Source: a virus (Duplodnaviria > Caudoviricetes). From it: a DNA stretch of 64,000 nt. The notes below the pieces were generated by a model. It did no database searches and was not told where the DNA came from. It saw only the letters and a program-made list of their open reading frames with translations. Location: IMG/VR virus record IMGVR_UViG_3300005611_000001; one strand, given 5' to 3'. Position 1 is the stretch's first letter. Every line of letters begins with the position of its first letter. The translations under genes were made by a program, and so were the position numbers. Of this stretch, positions 1-4,065 are shown in pieces.

Positions 1-1
1 A

Positions 2-205
2 GTATCTCGTCGTTCTAAAATTAAATGGTTATTAAAAATTCATAATGATAATGCATCGAAGTATTTTGATAGTCTTCTTTCTTATGAGTTTCGAAATGAG
101 TTACAAGAGTACGCTGAAGAAATAAAAGAATTAGAGATCCTTCTTTGGAAATTTGAATTGCCCTTACCTCCGGAAAAAATTAATCCAGTGGGATACGAAG
201 CTTAA
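2..205 (+). CDS. 3' end of a hypothetical protein (truncated by window start)
   Basis: Open frame VSRRSKIKWLL...PVGYEA ending at TAA 203-205. Confidence 0.6.
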   Translation, partial: VSRRSKIKWLLKIHNDNASKYFDSLLSYEFRNELQEYAEEIKELEILLWKFELPLPPEKINPVGYEA

Positions 206-260
206 TCTTTTTTAACATGGAAATAAATTATGAAAGCAGGTAAAGTTTGGGGTACTACTG

Positions 261-530
261 ATGACATTGTTCGGAGAACCGTTGGACAAAAAATCGATTG
301 ACTCTGATCTAAAAGCCCTGTACTCTTCTGTGCAGGGCAAAGTTGATCGTCATCTAGTCGAAGCGCTGGCTGATATTCGAAATGGTAAAGACCCCGAGGT
401 TGTGCTGCGTAAGTTCAGCCGACTTGCAACAAACACTCTTATTCATGGCCCCACAAAAGTAATTCGCGATCAAGACAATCCTGAACTGATCAAAAAAATC
501 ATAGGTATTGAAAATGAAGATAAATCATAG
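261..530 (+). CDS. Small protein resembling the glutamyl-tRNA reductase dimerisation domain
   Basis: ALADIRNGKDPEVVLRKFSRLATNTLIHGPT resembles the HemA C-terminal motif (AL..L..G.DPE.VL...A..LTNKL.H.PT); no catalytic domain. Confidence 0.5.
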   Translation: MTLFGEPLDKKSIDSDLKALYSSVQGKVDRHLVEALADIRNGKDPEVVLRKFSRLATNTLIHGPTKVIRDQDNPELIKKIIGIENEDKS

Positions 531-807
531 TAATGCAATTTTTGACCTTGAGCAAGAATTTATTAACTGCTGGGAAATCATCGATGATGTGAAAATGATT
601 ACAGATTACTTCACAGATGATCCGAAGTGGAAAGAGATGGATCCTGTTCTTGCAGATGCTCTGATGAATAAATACTATGGGCTTGCAGAAGTCTATGAAC
701 TTAGAATGCAGAAAGCATGGAACACCTTTGAAACTGTCTGCCGTGAATATCACGCAGCCAGACGCGCATCAAAACAAACTTACGGAGTCGAGCATGAAAG
801 CGATTAA
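508..807 (+). CDS. Hypothetical protein
   Basis: 99 aa ORF overlapping its neighbours, phage-like codon usage. Confidence 0.7.
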   Translation: MKMKINHSNAIFDLEQEFINCWEIIDDVKMITDYFTDDPKWKEMDPVLADALMNKYYGLAEVYELRMQKAWNTFETVCREYHAARRASKQTYGVEHESD

Positions 808-1006
808 GAACTATTTCAAGACCCTCTTTCTTGAAGAGTATCAGGTTGTCATTTGGAATGACGGCGCTGATGATCGCACCATTTATGCTCTGAAAAAGAT
901 TGAGAAGATCGATTCGAACAATCTGGTCGGCGTTCTCACCACCGGTGAAAGATTCGAAATGTGTGTCCAAACACCTTTCAATTTCACCGTTAAAAAGATT
1001 CATTGA
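794..1006 (+). CDS. Hypothetical protein (start MKAIKNY)
   Basis: GGAG SD upstream of ATG 794. Confidence 0.7.
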   Translation: MKAIKNYFKTLFLEEYQVVIWNDGADDRTIYALKKIEKIDSNNLVGVLTTGERFEMCVQTPFNFTVKKIH

Positions 1007-1148
1007 TATCGATATATCAAAATATTCTAAACTTTTTTATGAATATTTCATGAAAGTCTAAGACAACCTTTATACATAATTGCGTGTAGAAAAGTAACAC
1101 TACACACCGCCATCCCCCACAAACAAATATTTTTGGAGAATTTTTCAA

Positions 1149-1349
1149 ATGAAAAATCTAGTTGCGTTCGTCTGTCTTTTTGCCTCTGCTGGTGCTCTTG
1201 CTGTCACTGATTCTTATGTTGCTCGCCTGAATGACCAAGGTGAGTACTGCGCTAAAATTAATGTTGGTATCGTTACCCCCTACTTCAAGACCAAGTGCTA
1301 TACGCTTGAGCAGTGGGAAGAGAACGGTTTCACGGTCGAAGTTAAATAA
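1149..1349 (+). CDS. Small exported protein
   Basis: Signal peptide MKNLVAFVCLFASAGALA, two Cys, GGAG SD. Confidence 0.75.
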   Translation: MKNLVAFVCLFASAGALAVTDSYVARLNDQGEYCAKINVGIVTPYFKTKCYTLEQWEENGFTVEVK

Positions 1350-1370
1350 GAGGTTGCGATCAGATAATCA

Positions 1371-1604
1371 ATGGCAAACACATTTAAGTTTTATCTTCCT
1401 TTAATAGTAATTTTTGCTCTTTGCGTTTTCGGTCTGTTCGCGCCTGTAATCTACAGCGATGTGTACGGTGAGATTCTGAACAACTCACCAACGCTTTACA
1501 TGCCGATGGTGAATGTTGATTATCTGACCAATGAAATGTGCAATGATCCCACCAAACTGCACTATGTTCTTTGCGGTCTTGATGACTTGAATACTGTAGC
1601 ATAA
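1371..1604 (+). CDS. Small membrane-anchored protein
   Basis: N-terminal hydrophobic helix, GAGG SD. Confidence 0.6.
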   Translation: MANTFKFYLPLIVIFALCVFGLFAPVIYSDVYGEILNNSPTLYMPMVNVDYLTNEMCNDPTKLHYVLCGLDDLNTVA

Positions 1605-1627
1605 TCGGTTATACTATATACTATAGA

Positions 1628-1927
1628 ACGCACTGCTTTGATCTAGAAGTGGCAAAGGCTACAATCAGACTAAGATCCCTCCATTAGGAGGGTACGCGGG
1701 GGAGGATCCCGCAGGCAGTGCGTCTCTTTAGAGTATAGATTGGGCAGAGCGAACATAACTTGGAACATAAACTCGTTGCTTCCAAGTGACTGACCGATTC
1801 CTAAGCGAGGTGCGGAATCCTAGCAATCTATAAAGTCCTAAGGATTTAAAATCCTGGGCAGATTAATCACCGTGCGTGAAACTCGTTTCGGTTTGATTAG
1901 CAGCGGGTGGAAGCCCCGCACCTTTTT
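1628..1927 (+). ncRNA. Unidentified structured RNA (multi-hairpin domains)
   Basis: ORF-free; helices ACGCACTGC/GCAGTGCGT, TATAGATTG/CAATCTATA, ACTTGGAA/TTCCAAGT, GATTCC/GGAATC; ends in a GC hairpin plus T run. Confidence 0.6.
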
Positions 1928-2004
1928 AGAATAGGCACTGAGTATGCTTAAGCATCAGTTAGTCCTGTAGAGTCGCAATCTTGGGCAACAGTGTCTGTTC
2001 TAAT

Positions 2005-2310
2005 TTATTCGATGAAGCGGAGAGAAAGGTGATCTGGACAGAGGTTCAACTCCTCTCACCTCCACCAAAAGCACATACGCTGGATATGCAGATAGCATAT
2101 TGAGACATAAGAAACATCAGGTATGTGCTTTTGATGGGGGTGTACTGGTTTCGACAGGTGCTAAGTATCAAAGTGGAGAATCGTCAAGCGCTGACGCTAA
2201 ACAGAGCAACCTAAAATAAACGCAAACGATGACGTTTATACCGAGGACTTTGCGCTAGCAGCGTAAACCTCGCGGGGTTCGCCGGAGCCTTGTTACCCAA
2301 GTCCGGCACT
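2005..2310 (+). ncRNA. ssrA: Circularly permuted (two-piece) tmRNA; acceptor piece ends CCA 2067, coding piece starts 2136; outer ends approximate
   Basis: T-arm plus CACCTCC-A-CCA (2057-2067) lies upstream of GGGGGTG...TTCGAC (2136); G3-U wobble; tag ORF 2222-2266 ANDDVYTEDFALAA-stop. Confidence 0.9.
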
Positions 2311-2329
2311 AATTCGGAGAAATCTACAA

Positions 2330-2596
2330 ATGAAACCATTCAGTCAATACATTACAGAGTATAATGATGAAACTCTTGTGAAGAAGATAAAGCACCCTAG
2401 TGGGACCGTTTTAATGATCTCTCGCTACAAGAACGGACCCGATGAAGGTAAGTACATTGTTCGTGTATCCAAGAGTAATTATGAACGTGGAAAGCAGAAT
2501 CGCACGATGCGAGCTATACACGATAAGCCTCTCGATGCAGAAGCAGCCGTCGCCCTTTTTAATAAAAGAAAGAAATCGATCTGGAAGAAAAAATGA
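2330..2596 (+). CDS. Basic small protein with capsid-targeting-like N-terminus (putative internal head protein)
   Basis: MKPFSQYITE resembles the T4 internal protein CTS MKTYQEFIAE. Confidence 0.75.
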   Translation: MKPFSQYITEYNDETLVKKIKHPSGTVLMISRYKNGPDEGKYIVRVSKSNYERGKQNRTMRAIHDKPLDAEAAVALFNKRKKSIWKKK

Positions 2597-2601
2597 AATC
2601 A

Positions 2602-2659
2602 TTTCGACAGTTCTTCGCCTGGCGGCGTAAACTTCGCGGGGTCGGCACTAATTCGGAGA
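2602..2659 (+). repeat. Degenerate partial copy of the tmRNA coding-piece 3' region
   Basis: 2625-2641 matches 2261-2277 (16/17) and 2643-2659 matches 2304-2320 (17/17). Confidence 0.85.
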
Positions 2660-2665
2660 GAGTGA

Positions 2666-3355
2666 GTGCGAACATTACTGATTAGTGATGTACATATTGG
2701 GTTCAAGTTTTCTAGAGCCAAAGATGCAGTGACTGTTCTTGAAAAAGAAAAGTTTGACAGACTGATATTAGTTGGTGACATTTTTGATATTCAAAATATG
2801 ATGCATCGTGCATACTGGGATGAACATCACACTGCCTTCCTTAAGAAAATCCTCAAACTGGCTAAGAAAAAAGAAGTCATTTATGTAATTGGCAATCACG
2901 ATTATCCTCTCTATCATCTACAAGAATACACCAAGAAAATAGCAGGCATTCATCTATGCCGAGAGTACACTTACACTTCGGGTGACAAGACAATTCACTG
3001 TGTTCACGGTGACCAGTTTGATTCTGTCTCGCGCAAGATTCAAGTTCTTGGTGATTTCTTCTATAATATGCTTCTGCATCTAAATCGTTTGATTGGCAGA
3101 ATTCAGACACTGTTCGGATTCAAGTATCGCTCTTTTAGCAAGTGGTGCAAAGACAAGGTTAAGAACACGATCAGCAAAGCATTCTCAATTGAAGAGAAAC
3201 TGCATGCAATAGATAATGTTGATGTTGTGATTTACGGGCATACTCATATGCCTTATATTAGCGACACTCTTATCAACACGGGCACCTTTGTTGAGATTGC
3301 AACTTATGTCATTGAAGAGAACGGTGTGTTCGAACTAAAGGATTTGGATAAATGA
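2666..3355 (+). CDS. Metallophosphoesterase, UDP-2,3-diacylglucosamine hydrolase (LpxH)-like
   Basis: SDVHIG, GDIFD, GNHD, HGD, GHTH motifs; GTG start. Confidence 0.85.
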   Translation: MRTLLISDVHIGFKFSRAKDAVTVLEKEKFDRLILVGDIFDIQNMMHRAYWDEHHTAFLKKILKLAKKKEVIYVIGNHDYPLYHLQEYTKKIAGIHLCREYTYTSGDKTIHCVHGDQFDSVSRKIQVLGDFFYNMLLHLNRLIGRIQTLFGFKYRSFSKWCKDKVKNTISKAFSIEEKLHAIDNVDVVIYGHTHMPYISDTLINTGTFVEIATYVIEENGVFELKDLDK

Positions 3356-4065
3356 AAGATTTGGTGACTATTGTAGTCCCTTGTAAGAACGAAGAAAAGT
3401 ATATTCAATACTTGCTGTGTCATTTAGCCTCACAAGAAGATGCAAAGGGTGTTCGGATTATCATTGCGGATGCTTCGACCGATTCTACGCGTAGAATCAT
3501 AAAAGAGTACGGTAAACTGTACGAGTTGAATTATGAGATTATCGAAGGCGGTCCTGTGTCTGTCGCGAAGAATAATGGTGCTGCGCTGGTCAAGACTCCA
3601 TATACTTTGTTTATCGACGCTGATGTACAATTCTTTTCAAGAACAGTAATCAAAGATACTATTGCTCAGATGATCGACGAAGACCTTGATTTAATTGGTC
3701 TGAATATCAAATGCTACGATAAAGACATTGTGGCTAAGATTGGATTCTTCTCTTTCAATATCGTCAATCGTATTATGTCGAACTTTATTCCGTTCGCAGT
3801 AGGCGCTTACTTTCTTACGAAAACATCAAAGTTCCGTGAACTAGGTGGATTCCCAAATAAGTATGTTACGAGCGAAGATTTCTTTTTAAGTAAGATGTAC
3901 GATCATAAACGATTTAGAATCGCAAAACATTATTTTGGGCAAGATAGTAGGCGATTCAAGAAGATGGGATATTTTGGTATGCTAGGATATCTTATCCAAA
4001 ACTTCTTGAATCGCAACAATAAAAAGTATTGGGAAGAGAAAGACTTCTCTAAGTACTGGGACTAA
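3352..4065 (+). CDS. Glycosyltransferase family 2
   Basis: TIVVPCKNEE, DASTD, FIDAD, SED motifs. Confidence 0.85.
   Translation: MKDLVTIVVPCKNEEKYIQYLLCHLASQEDAKGVRIIIADASTDSTRRIIKEYGKLYELNYEIIEGGPVSVAKNNGAALVKTPYTLFIDADVQFFSRTVIKDTIAQMIDEDLDLIGLNIKCYDKDIVAKIGFFSFNIVNRIMSNFIPFAVGAYFLTKTSKFRELGGFPNKYVTSEDFFLSKMYDHKRFRIAKHYFGQDSRRFKKMGYFGMLGYLIQNFLNRNNKKYWEEKDFSKYWD

What the first reader, a model, noticed from the sequence alone, without database searches (positions are those of the whole stretch)
2005..2310. Phage-encoded circularly permuted (two-piece) tmRNA
Seen: the tmRNA 3' end (T-arm GAGGTTCAACTCCTC, CACCTCC-A-CCA, ends 2067) precedes the 5' end (GGGGGTG...TTCGAC, 2136). The strands form a 7 bp acceptor stem with the G3-U alanyl identity pair. 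The 68 nt spacer is closed by a 13 bp inverted repeat (CAAAAGCACATAC 2066 / GTATGTGCTTTTG 2121). The tag ORF is ANDDVYTEDFALAA after AAATAAAC. Established: permuted ssrA occurs in alphaproteobacteria, some betaproteobacteria and some cyanobacteria. Inference: the phage supplies its own trans-translation RNA in two-piece form, which also hints at the host lineage.
Basis: partly seen in the sequence, partly recalled or inferred. Interest (0 to 1): 0.8.

Follow-up and report, generated by a model that had tools for sequence, protein, structure and literature searches.

The report
Phage-encoded two-piece tmRNA, beta type
This aquatic T4-like phage really does carry its own rearranged ("two-piece") gene for tmRNA, the RNA that rescues stalled ribosomes, but such phage genes are already published and common, and the type of gene does not reveal the host.

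Summary
ARAGORN calls a permuted tmRNA with tag ANDDVYTEDFALAA. Rfam tmRNA_permuted scores 113.9 bits against a gathering score of 47.

The gene spans about 2003-2307 on the + strand:
- acceptor piece, about 2003-2067, ending in an encoded CCA;
- 68-nt stem-closed spacer, 2068-2135;
- coding piece, 2136 to about 2307.

It is the betaproteobacterial structural type (RF01850, full length, 81.9 bits, just under the cut-off of 84). It is not the alpha type that Buchholz et al. 2022 (PMC9004378) published for the related OM43 phage Melnitz, and it lacks Melnitz's glutamine riboswitch.

At least 17 distinct IMG/VR contigs carry relatives. Compensatory changes in P2, the T-arm, the spacer helix and the 3' hairpin show selection on the RNA. 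In a tree rooted with one-piece tmRNAs these viral genes form a sister group to the Rhodocyclales genes.

The same type occurs in cultured phages of Stenotrophomonas, Xanthomonas, Acinetobacter, Alcaligenes and Synechococcus elongatus, so the host-lineage hint fails.

No SmpB is encoded in the window. Processing and function are inferred, not shown.

This scan has noted phage two-piece tmRNAs on other DNA many times (547 notes). Verdict: real, and a new member of a known kind.

The parts
2003..2067 (+). Acceptor piece (3' half of the tRNA-like domain). It holds the P2 3'-side strands (AUUC 2007-2010, AUCUG 2032-2036), the T-arm at 2040-2056, the acceptor 3' strand at 2057-2063, discriminator A2064 and encoded CCA at 2065-2067.
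   Evidence: Rfam alignments. The 5' boundary follows from the 89-nt insertion that L015 carries just before window 2003. P2 and the T-arm covary.
2068..2135 (+). Intervening segment expected to be removed from the precursor. It is closed by a 13-bp helix (2066-2078 / 2121-2133) that continues the acceptor stem, and it holds no ORF worth naming.
   Evidence: The closing helix shows many compensatory changes across 21 relatives. The same helix, shorter, occurs in Azonexus, Dechloromonas and Thauera genes.
2136..2307 (+). Coding piece. It holds the acceptor 5' strand GGGGGUG at 2136-2142, UACUGGUUUCGA, the P2 5'-side strands (CAGGU 2155-2159, GAAU 2178-2181), the PK1 hairpin at 2182-2196, the tag frame and the 3' hairpin.
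   Evidence: The 3' boundary follows from the point where L118 and an RNA-library contig diverge, after GGCA at 2307-2308.
2222..2266 (+). Tag reading frame: resume codon GCA, 14 codons reading ANDDVYTEDFALAA, then stop TAA.
   Evidence: ARAGORN. The frame is identical in L015 and L118. Related alleles vary in the middle and keep the ANDD start and LAA end.
2281..2307 (+). 3' hairpin GCCGGA / UCCGGC with the conserved loop GCCUUGUUACCCAAG, the hallmark of the beta-type model.
   Evidence: Stem sequences differ in nearly every relative while the loop is kept. The window and L015 differ by a compensated +G/+C in the stem.
2611..2659 (+). Relic of the 3' end of a second tmRNA allele: tag end ...RLAA-stop, the GGGG element and the tail, with the 25-nt hairpin core missing. 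Together with the tail of the intact gene (2255-2320) it flanks an 88-codon ORF (2330-2596).
   Evidence: repeats D1, D2. L015 and an RNA-library contig lack 2321-2659. Another contig carries an allele whose tag end matches 2616-2641.

Best explanation
The stretch from about 2003 to 2307 is a functional, phage-borne, circularly permuted ssrA gene of the betaproteobacterial structural type.

Inferred mechanism: it is transcribed as one precursor. Host tRNA-processing enzymes cut it (RNase P 5' of G2136, and 3' trimming to the encoded CCA at 2067) and discard the 68-nt stem-closed spacer. The roughly 65-nt acceptor piece and the roughly 172-nt coding piece stay joined by the 7-bp acceptor stem and helix P2. 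Host alanyl-tRNA synthetase charges the complex through the G3-U pair. With host SmpB and EF-Tu it enters stalled ribosomes in the infected cell, which then add ANDDVYTEDFALAA and terminate, freeing the ribosome and marking the truncated protein for ClpXP-type proteolysis.

The likely benefit to the phage is keeping ribosomes available while host mRNA is being destroyed.

Shown here: the identity, completeness and type of the gene, and selection on its structure.
Inferred: transcription, the exact ends, charging, SmpB use and the benefit.
For: - ARAGORN calls a permuted tmRNA and its tag.
- RF04321 scores 113.9 bits over the full model.
- RF01850 aligns full length at 81.9 bits, including the signature 3' hairpin.
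- All tRNA-like identity elements are present in the sequence.
- Of 38 predicted pairs, 25 show compensatory changes across 21 related genes, in P2, the T-arm and the spacer helix.
- The 3' hairpin stems differ in nearly every relative, and the window and its 98% identical relative differ by a compensated indel.
- The tag frame is identical among three near-identical copies. In more distant alleles it is conserved only at the ANDD and LAA ends.
- Contigs from RNA libraries of four studies cover the gene. This is weak evidence, because DNA carry-over is not excluded.
- No SmpB is found in the window or in the complete genomes of Melnitz and C48C1, as expected if host SmpB is used.
- The published parallel is Melnitz (PMC9004378).
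Against: - No direct evidence of transcription start, processing or charging.
- The score against the beta-type model is just under Rfam's gathering score. Helix P2 is weaker than in relatives: a 5-bp proximal and a 4-bp distal segment, with non-canonical positions marked.
- The minimum-free-energy fold does not reproduce P2.
- No convincing sigma-70 promoter lies directly upstream, and a terminator-like hairpin sits at 1903-1919.
- One RNA-library contig bridges the spacer, so an unprocessed form or DNA is present there.
- The nearest cultured relative, C48C1, has no tmRNA, so the gene is dispensable in this phage group.
Confidence: 0.8

Rival explanations
1. The RNA acts as a competitor or reprogrammer rather than a plain rescue factor. 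By outcompeting host tmRNA for SmpB it replaces the host tag with its own longer tag. This changes which adaptor or protease sees tagged proteins, or channels host proteins to degradation to recycle amino acids (the alternative voiced for Melnitz).
For: - The tag has 14 residues, against 10 in all bacterial beta-type genes seen. Its middle part varies freely among phage alleles.
- Buchholz et al. raise the recycling idea.
- A tRNA-domain-only phage tmRNA is reported to inhibit host tmRNA (PMC4131195).
Against: - The tag keeps the canonical ANDD start and ALAA end, so it should behave like an ordinary degradation tag.
- The whole mRNA-like domain is under selection, which a pure SmpB decoy would not need.
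- Nothing here distinguishes the two uses.
Confidence: 0.12
2. The gene is a passenger: a recently captured host ssrA, or the bacterial half of an attachment site, kept without function.
For: - tmRNA genes are common integration sites, and fragments of them occur in prophages (PMC4383910, PMC9004378).
- A relic of a second tmRNA 3' end lies 340 nt downstream.
Against: - The gene is complete, with both pieces.
- It belongs to a diverse viral group that is sister to the bacterial genes, not nested in them.
- It shows abundant compensatory change.
- The phage is of the lytic T4-like kind. I did not look for an integrase in the window; Buchholz et al. found none in Melnitz.
- Bacterial beta-type genes have 10-codon tags and shorter spacers.
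Confidence: 0.04

Closest known systems
Two-piece ssrA of Methylophilales (OM43) phage Melnitz and related pelagimyophages (Buchholz et al. 2022, PMC9004378)
   Same: - A permuted tmRNA gene in a marine or aquatic T4-like (Kyanoviridae) myophage.
- A 14-codon AND...ALAA tag (Melnitz: ANDNYVPVDYALAA).
- No phage SmpB.
- Present in only part of the phage group.
- The window's ribonucleotide reductase is 67% identical to Melnitz's.
   Different: - Melnitz's gene is the alpha type (RF01849, 106.7 bits) and is followed by a glutamine riboswitch. The window's gene is the beta type with no riboswitch.
- The flanking genes differ: Melnitz has a PDDEXK nuclease and the late-transcription coactivator, while the window has small ORFs, a metallophosphoesterase and a glycosyltransferase.
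- This points to separate acquisitions.
Betaproteobacterial two-piece tmRNA (Rfam RF01850; Sharkady and Williams 2004, cited from memory and from PMC9004378's reference list; that paper is not held in the library)
   Same: - The gene order is the same.
- The acceptor sequence GGGGGUG/CACCUCC and the UACUGGUUUCGACAGG element are the same.
- The spacer-closing helix is shared with the Azonexus and Thauera subtype.
- The 3' hairpin has the same CCUUGUUACC-type loop.
   Different: - The score is just under the gathering cut-off.
- The spacer is 68 nt, against 3-45 nt in the bacterial genes.
- CCA is encoded, whereas the Azonexus/Thauera subtype has ACCC.
- The tag has 14 codons, against 10.
- The model's terminal terminator hairpin is absent, and an ORF follows directly.
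- In the tree it falls in the viral sister group, not the Rhodocyclales group.
Beta-type permuted tmRNAs of cultured phages: Stenotrophomonas phage Moby and other Menderavirus, Xanthomonas phage JGB6, Acinetobacter phage BUCT628, Alcaligenes phage vB_Af_QDWS595, Synechococcus phage BUCT-ZZ01
   Same: - RF04321 scores 111-124 bits and RF01850 about 94 bits.
- ARAGORN calls them permuted, with AND...(L/I/A)AA tags.
- They often sit among phage tRNA genes.
   Different: - Only short stretches align at the DNA level, and the window's own gene found no match in that collection.
- The phage families and hosts are different.

Membership tests
tmRNA, permuted form (Rfam RF04321) | Covariance-model score at or above the gathering score, over the whole model | tested here: met
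   113.9 bits against 47, model positions 1-213 of 213, E 1.9e-21
tmRNA, permuted form (Rfam RF04321) | The 3' half of the tRNA-like domain (T-arm, acceptor strand, NCCA) lies upstream of the 5' half (GGGG... UUCGAC) on one strand | tested here: met
   The 3' half ends at 2067 and the 5' half starts at 2136
tmRNA, permuted form (Rfam RF04321) | 7-bp acceptor stem with the G3-U alanine identity pair and discriminator A | tested here: met
   G2138-T2061 and A2064, read directly from the sequence. The stem is invariant in 21 relatives.
tmRNA, permuted form (Rfam RF04321) | Tag reading frame with an alanine resume codon, a hydrophobic (L/V/I)AA end and an in-frame stop | tested here: met
   GCA at 2222 to TAA at 2266, reading ANDDVYTEDFALAA
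tmRNA, permuted form (Rfam RF04321) | Maturation into two base-paired RNAs, and charging with alanine | not testable with these tools
   Only contigs of RNA libraries were available. They show no ends, and one bridges the spacer.
tmRNA-SmpB system | A dedicated SmpB partner protein | tested here: inconclusive
   No SmpB in the 64-kb window by tblastn and phmmer with two SmpB queries, and none in complete Melnitz or C48C1. The rest of this phage genome and its host were not visible. Use of host SmpB is inferred.
beta_tmRNA (Rfam RF01850) | Score at or above the gathering score of 84 bits | tested here: not met
   81.9 bits over 1931-2325, whole model. It is the best of the clan, ahead of the alpha, cyano and standard models. 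One-piece tmRNAs of Burkholderiales reach at most 49.6 bits.
beta_tmRNA (Rfam RF01850) | 3' hairpin with the conserved CCUUGUUACC-type loop after the tag, and a helix closing the spacer | tested here: met
beta_tmRNA (Rfam RF01850) | Descent within the clade of permuted genes of Betaproteobacteria | tested here: inconclusive
   In the rooted tree all permuted genes are one clade (100/100). The window lies in the viral group (90/85), sister to the Rhodocyclales group (99/87). The alignment is short and the sampling was by pattern.
alpha_tmRNA (Rfam RF01849) | Best-scoring lineage model | tested here: not met
   Clan competition kept beta_tmRNA for the window, whereas it kept alpha_tmRNA for Melnitz.
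Melnitz-type ssrA with glutamine riboswitch | Glutamine riboswitch (RF01739) directly 3' of the tmRNA | tested here: not met
   No such match in window 1-3200 at E up to 10. It is present in Melnitz at 52.8 bits.

The most novel reading that the evidence does not exclude
The beta-type two-piece tmRNA may be primarily a phage gene family. Viral copies are far more diverse than the bacterial ones, occur in several phage families and on hosts of at least three classes, and form the sister group of the Rhodocyclales genes. The permutation could therefore have arisen in a phage, with an ancestor of the Rhodocyclales taking it over in place of its one-piece ssrA.
Probability: 0.12. Interest if true: 0.6.

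Novelty: new member of a known kind. Interest (0 to 1): 0.25.

Why it matters
It adds one more well-delimited example to a published class of phage auxiliary genes that act on translation quality control. Three points are modestly useful.

1. Closely related marine and aquatic myophages carry different structural types of two-piece tmRNA (alpha in Melnitz, beta here) at different loci, which points to repeated acquisition.
2. The beta type is spread across phages of unrelated hosts, so the tmRNA type should not be used to predict a host.
3. The spacer-closing helix and the 3' hairpin are under clear selection in phages. That gives defined targets for testing how the precursor is cut.

None of this changes current understanding of trans-translation.

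Tried and rejected
- **DNA searches of the phage collection** with the tmRNA region (distant mode) and with 20 kb of the window (near mode) found nothing. The relatives came from pattern scans and protein searches instead.
- **No whole genome** is held for the window.
- **The genome contigs pattern** GGGGGTGNNNTGGTTTCGACAGG was not specific to permuted genes. The bacterial sample is therefore incomplete.
- **The order-wide search** for RF01850 gave 4 of 151 genomes over the cut-off but no taxon names. I could not say whether OM43 has the beta type.
- **Sequencing runs.** Only small shares of the sampled words were held, and only as contigs. Laying four RNA-library runs showed cover of the gene but no RNA ends, no strand and no proof of transcription. 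Three contigs start at 2124-2125, which is where strains begin to differ, so this is most simply an assembly-graph break and not an RNA end. The habitat labels of the small-share runs were not used.
- **Minimum-free-energy folding** of the two pieces and of the precursor recovers the acceptor stem, the T-arm, the spacer helix and the 3' hairpin, but not P2. P2 was taken from covariation instead.
- **The sigma-70 scan** found no promoter between the terminator-like hairpin at 1903-1919 and the gene. The promoter remains unknown.
- **A pseudoknot** between GGGG(U) at 2274-2278 and the 3' hairpin loop was considered, but I could not support it by covariation by eye.
- **Adding the five cultured-phage genes to the tree** failed, because my extraction patterns did not fit them.
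- **Rejected readings:** tandem one-piece genes, a chance match, a host fragment from prophage excision, and a gene carried in the spacer (the spacer is only 68 nt).

Full report
**1.
- T-arm AGAGG-TTCAACT-CCTCT at 2040-2056.
- Acceptor 3' strand CACCTCC at 2057-2063, discriminator A2064 and CCA at 2065-2067.
- A 68-nt spacer at 2068-2135, whose ends CAAAAGCACATAC (2066-2078) and GTATGTGCTTTTG (2121-2133) are perfectly complementary.
- Acceptor 5' strand GGGGGTG at 2136-2142, which pairs with 2057-2063 through seven pairs including G2138-T2061.
- TACTGGTTTCGAC after that.
- A frame GCA AAC GAT GAC GTT TAT ACC GAG GAC TTT GCG CTA GCA GCG TAA at 2222-2266.

ARAGORN reports one permuted tmRNA with tag ANDDVYTEDFALAA. 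Rfam's tmRNA_permuted model matches 2007-2266 end to end at 113.9 bits (gathering score 47, E 1.9e-21). Nothing else in the window resembles a tmRNA, so tandem one-piece genes are excluded.

**2. It is phage DNA.**
- Almost all ORFs run on the + strand.
- Six tRNA genes cluster at 59.1-59.8 kb.
- PHROG families for ribonucleotide reductase and cytidyltransferase are present.
- The reductase is 80.7% identical to that of Phage C48C1 (Kyanoviridae, 156 kb) and 67% identical to that of the OM43 phage Melnitz.
- Seventeen window frames match a 50-kb piece of C48C1, most of them in one syntenic block at 40-86% identity.
- An IMG/VR contig (L015) carries the same tmRNA gene at 97-98% identity.

**3. 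Limits of the gene.**
L015 has an 89-nt insertion, with inverted ends, immediately before the position that matches window 2003. L118 is a 3.5-kb contig binned, probably wrongly, into a Melainabacteria MAG. It diverges from the window right after GGCA at 2307-2308, as does an RNA-library contig.

**4. Structural type.**
Among the lineage-specific Rfam models the best is beta_tmRNA (RF01850). It aligns over 1931-2325 with the whole model at 81.9 bits, just under the gathering score of 84. The alignment includes the signature 3' hairpin GCCGGA-GCCUUGUUACCCAAG-UCCGGC at 2281-2307. The terminator hairpin that ends the bacterial model is missing. Instead a ribosome-binding site and an ORF follow.

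One-piece tmRNAs of 151 sampled Burkholderiales reach at most 49.6 bits on this model, and only 4 of the 151 genomes exceed the cut-off. The match is therefore specific.

Melnitz's gene is the alpha type (106.7 bits) and is followed by a glutamine riboswitch (52.8 bits), as published. The window has no riboswitch match even at E 10, and its flanking genes differ from Melnitz's. C48C1 has no permuted tmRNA at all.

**5. Relatives and selection.**
A pattern scan of IMG/VR for CACCTCCACCA, then 45-75 nt, then GGGGGTG...TGGTTTCGAC returned 23 contigs. All are beta type, several sit beside tRNA clusters, and their tags run from ANDNAYALAA to ANDDFYNEEYAVAA.

An alignment of 21 distinct genes gives a consensus structure of 38 pairs. 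Of these, 25 show changes on both sides that keep the pair:
- the P2 segments;
- the T-arm;
- the helix closing the spacer (for example one pair is U-A in 10 sequences and C-G in 9).

The 3' hairpin has a different stem in almost every relative and a conserved loop. The window and its 98% identical relative differ by an extra G in one strand matched by an extra C in the other. The tag frame is identical in the three near-identical copies. In more distant alleles it changes only in the middle. This is the pattern expected of an RNA that is used.

**6. Comparison with bacteria.**
Bacterial beta-type genes recovered by a genome scan are almost all from the Rhodocyclales: Azonexus, Dechloromonas, Thauera and Accumulibacter.
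- Their tags have 10 codons (ANDERFALAA, ANDEQFAIAA).
- One subtype has CCA followed by a spacer of 3-4 nt (Accumulibacter).
- The other has ACCC followed by a stem-closed spacer of 25-45 nt.

The spacer-closing helix is therefore not a phage invention. The phage spacers are simply longer, at 54-72 nt.

I built a tree from the last 62 nt of the acceptor piece up to ACC plus the first 185 nt of the coding piece, with 12 one-piece Burkholderiales tmRNAs as outgroup. In it the permuted genes form one clade (100/100). That clade splits into a Rhodocyclales group (99/87) and a group of 17 viral genes plus two Oxalobacteraceae-MAG contigs (90/85), and the latter holds the window. The viral branches are much longer.

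Caveats: the alignment is short, the sampling was by pattern, and rates are unequal. The gene is not a recent capture from any sequenced bacterium I could reach.

**7. The host hint fails.**
Using two of the viral genes as queries, I found the same type in cultured phages: Stenotrophomonas phage Moby and its kin, Xanthomonas phage JGB6, Acinetobacter phage BUCT628, Alcaligenes phage vB_Af_QDWS595 and Synechococcus elongatus phage BUCT-ZZ01. RF01850 scores 93.8-94.7 bits on them, and ARAGORN calls them permuted. Some of these GenBank records already annotate the gene as ssrA.

The control genomes of E. coli and S. elongatus show no beta-type gene over the cut-off. Together with Melnitz, this shows that the type of a phage tmRNA does not report the host's lineage.

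From memory, the 14-residue tag ending EDFALAA looks more like the Caulobacter tag than like the 10-residue beta tags. That recollection points the other way from the scaffold, which underlines the ambiguity.

**8. How it most likely works.**
No SmpB is encoded in the window or in complete Melnitz and C48C1. The RNA must therefore use the host's SmpB, alanyl-tRNA synthetase, EF-Tu and processing enzymes. These steps are inferred from what is established for Caulobacter's two-piece tmRNA (Keiler, Shapiro and Williams 2000, cited through PMC9004378 and PMC11915505).

The upstream context holds a conserved sigma-70-like promoter at 1587-1615 and a terminator-like hairpin at 1903-1919. I could not place a promoter for the tmRNA itself.

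Contigs from RNA libraries of four studies cover the gene, and one joins the tail to the downstream gene. They cannot show ends or even prove transcription.

**9. Novelty.**
Buchholz et al. 2022 describe the Melnitz two-piece tmRNA. They count 53 permuted calls among 18,146 phage genomes, 50 of them aquatic, and 17 among 47 Melnitz-like contigs. The 2025 tmRNA database lists 79 bacteriophage sequences. This scan has itself noted such genes 547 times in at least 420 genomes.

In the papers I could search I found no explicit description of a beta-type viral clade. That is a refinement, not a new kind. I rate this a new member of a known kind, with interest 0.25.

Noticed in passing
window 2255-2320 and 2611-2659, ORF 2330-2596: The end of the tag plus the tmRNA tail recurs 340-365 nt downstream, with the 25-nt hairpin core deleted. 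The two copies flank an 88-codon ORF with no Pfam family. L015 and an RNA-library contig lack the whole 339-nt segment. Another contig carries a tmRNA allele (tag ANDDSYYGEMRLAA) whose tag end matches the second copy, so that copy is a relic of a different allele. This resembles the displaced fragments that islands leave at bacterial ssrA genes, but here it lies in a lytic-type phage.
   Followed up: partly
window 1587-1930: A sigma-70-like promoter (TTGAAT, 17 nt, TATACT) is conserved in L015, and a terminator-like hairpin at 1903-1919 is followed by a T run. Together they bracket about 300 nt with no ORF and no Rfam match. The interior differs between the window and L015 while the ends are conserved. 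This may be an independent small RNA gene directly upstream of the tmRNA.
   Followed up: partly
L015 537-625 (between the positions matching window 2002 and 2003): An 89-nt insertion with 11-nt inverted ends (AAACACACTAG ... CTAGTGTGTTT) sits exactly at the 5' edge of the tmRNA gene in the close relative. It looks like a miniature inverted-repeat element.
   Followed up: no
L118 (CALBDR010000467.1): A 3.5-kb contig binned into a 'Candidatus Melainabacteria' MAG carries the coding piece of this phage tmRNA at 97% identity and starts inside the spacer. It is most likely a phage fragment binned by mistake.
   Followed up: no
L050 and L099 (Herminiimonas and Noviherbaspirillum MAG contigs): These two Oxalobacteraceae MAG contigs carry permuted tmRNAs with 47-49-nt spacers. 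ARAGORN read an unusual tag, ANDANYLVQVYG, on L050 and called no gene on L099, which lies at a contig end. Both group with the viral genes in the tree. They may be prophage or phage DNA.
   Followed up: no
window 261-530: An 89-residue ORF matches only the dimerisation domain of glutamyl-tRNA reductase (PF00745, E 1.2e-7), with no catalytic domain.
   Followed up: no
window 2666-4065: A calcineurin-like metallophosphoesterase (PF00149) and a family 2 glycosyltransferase (PF00535) lie directly downstream of the tmRNA. In one RNA-library contig the tmRNA tail is joined to the start of the phosphoesterase gene.
   Followed up: no
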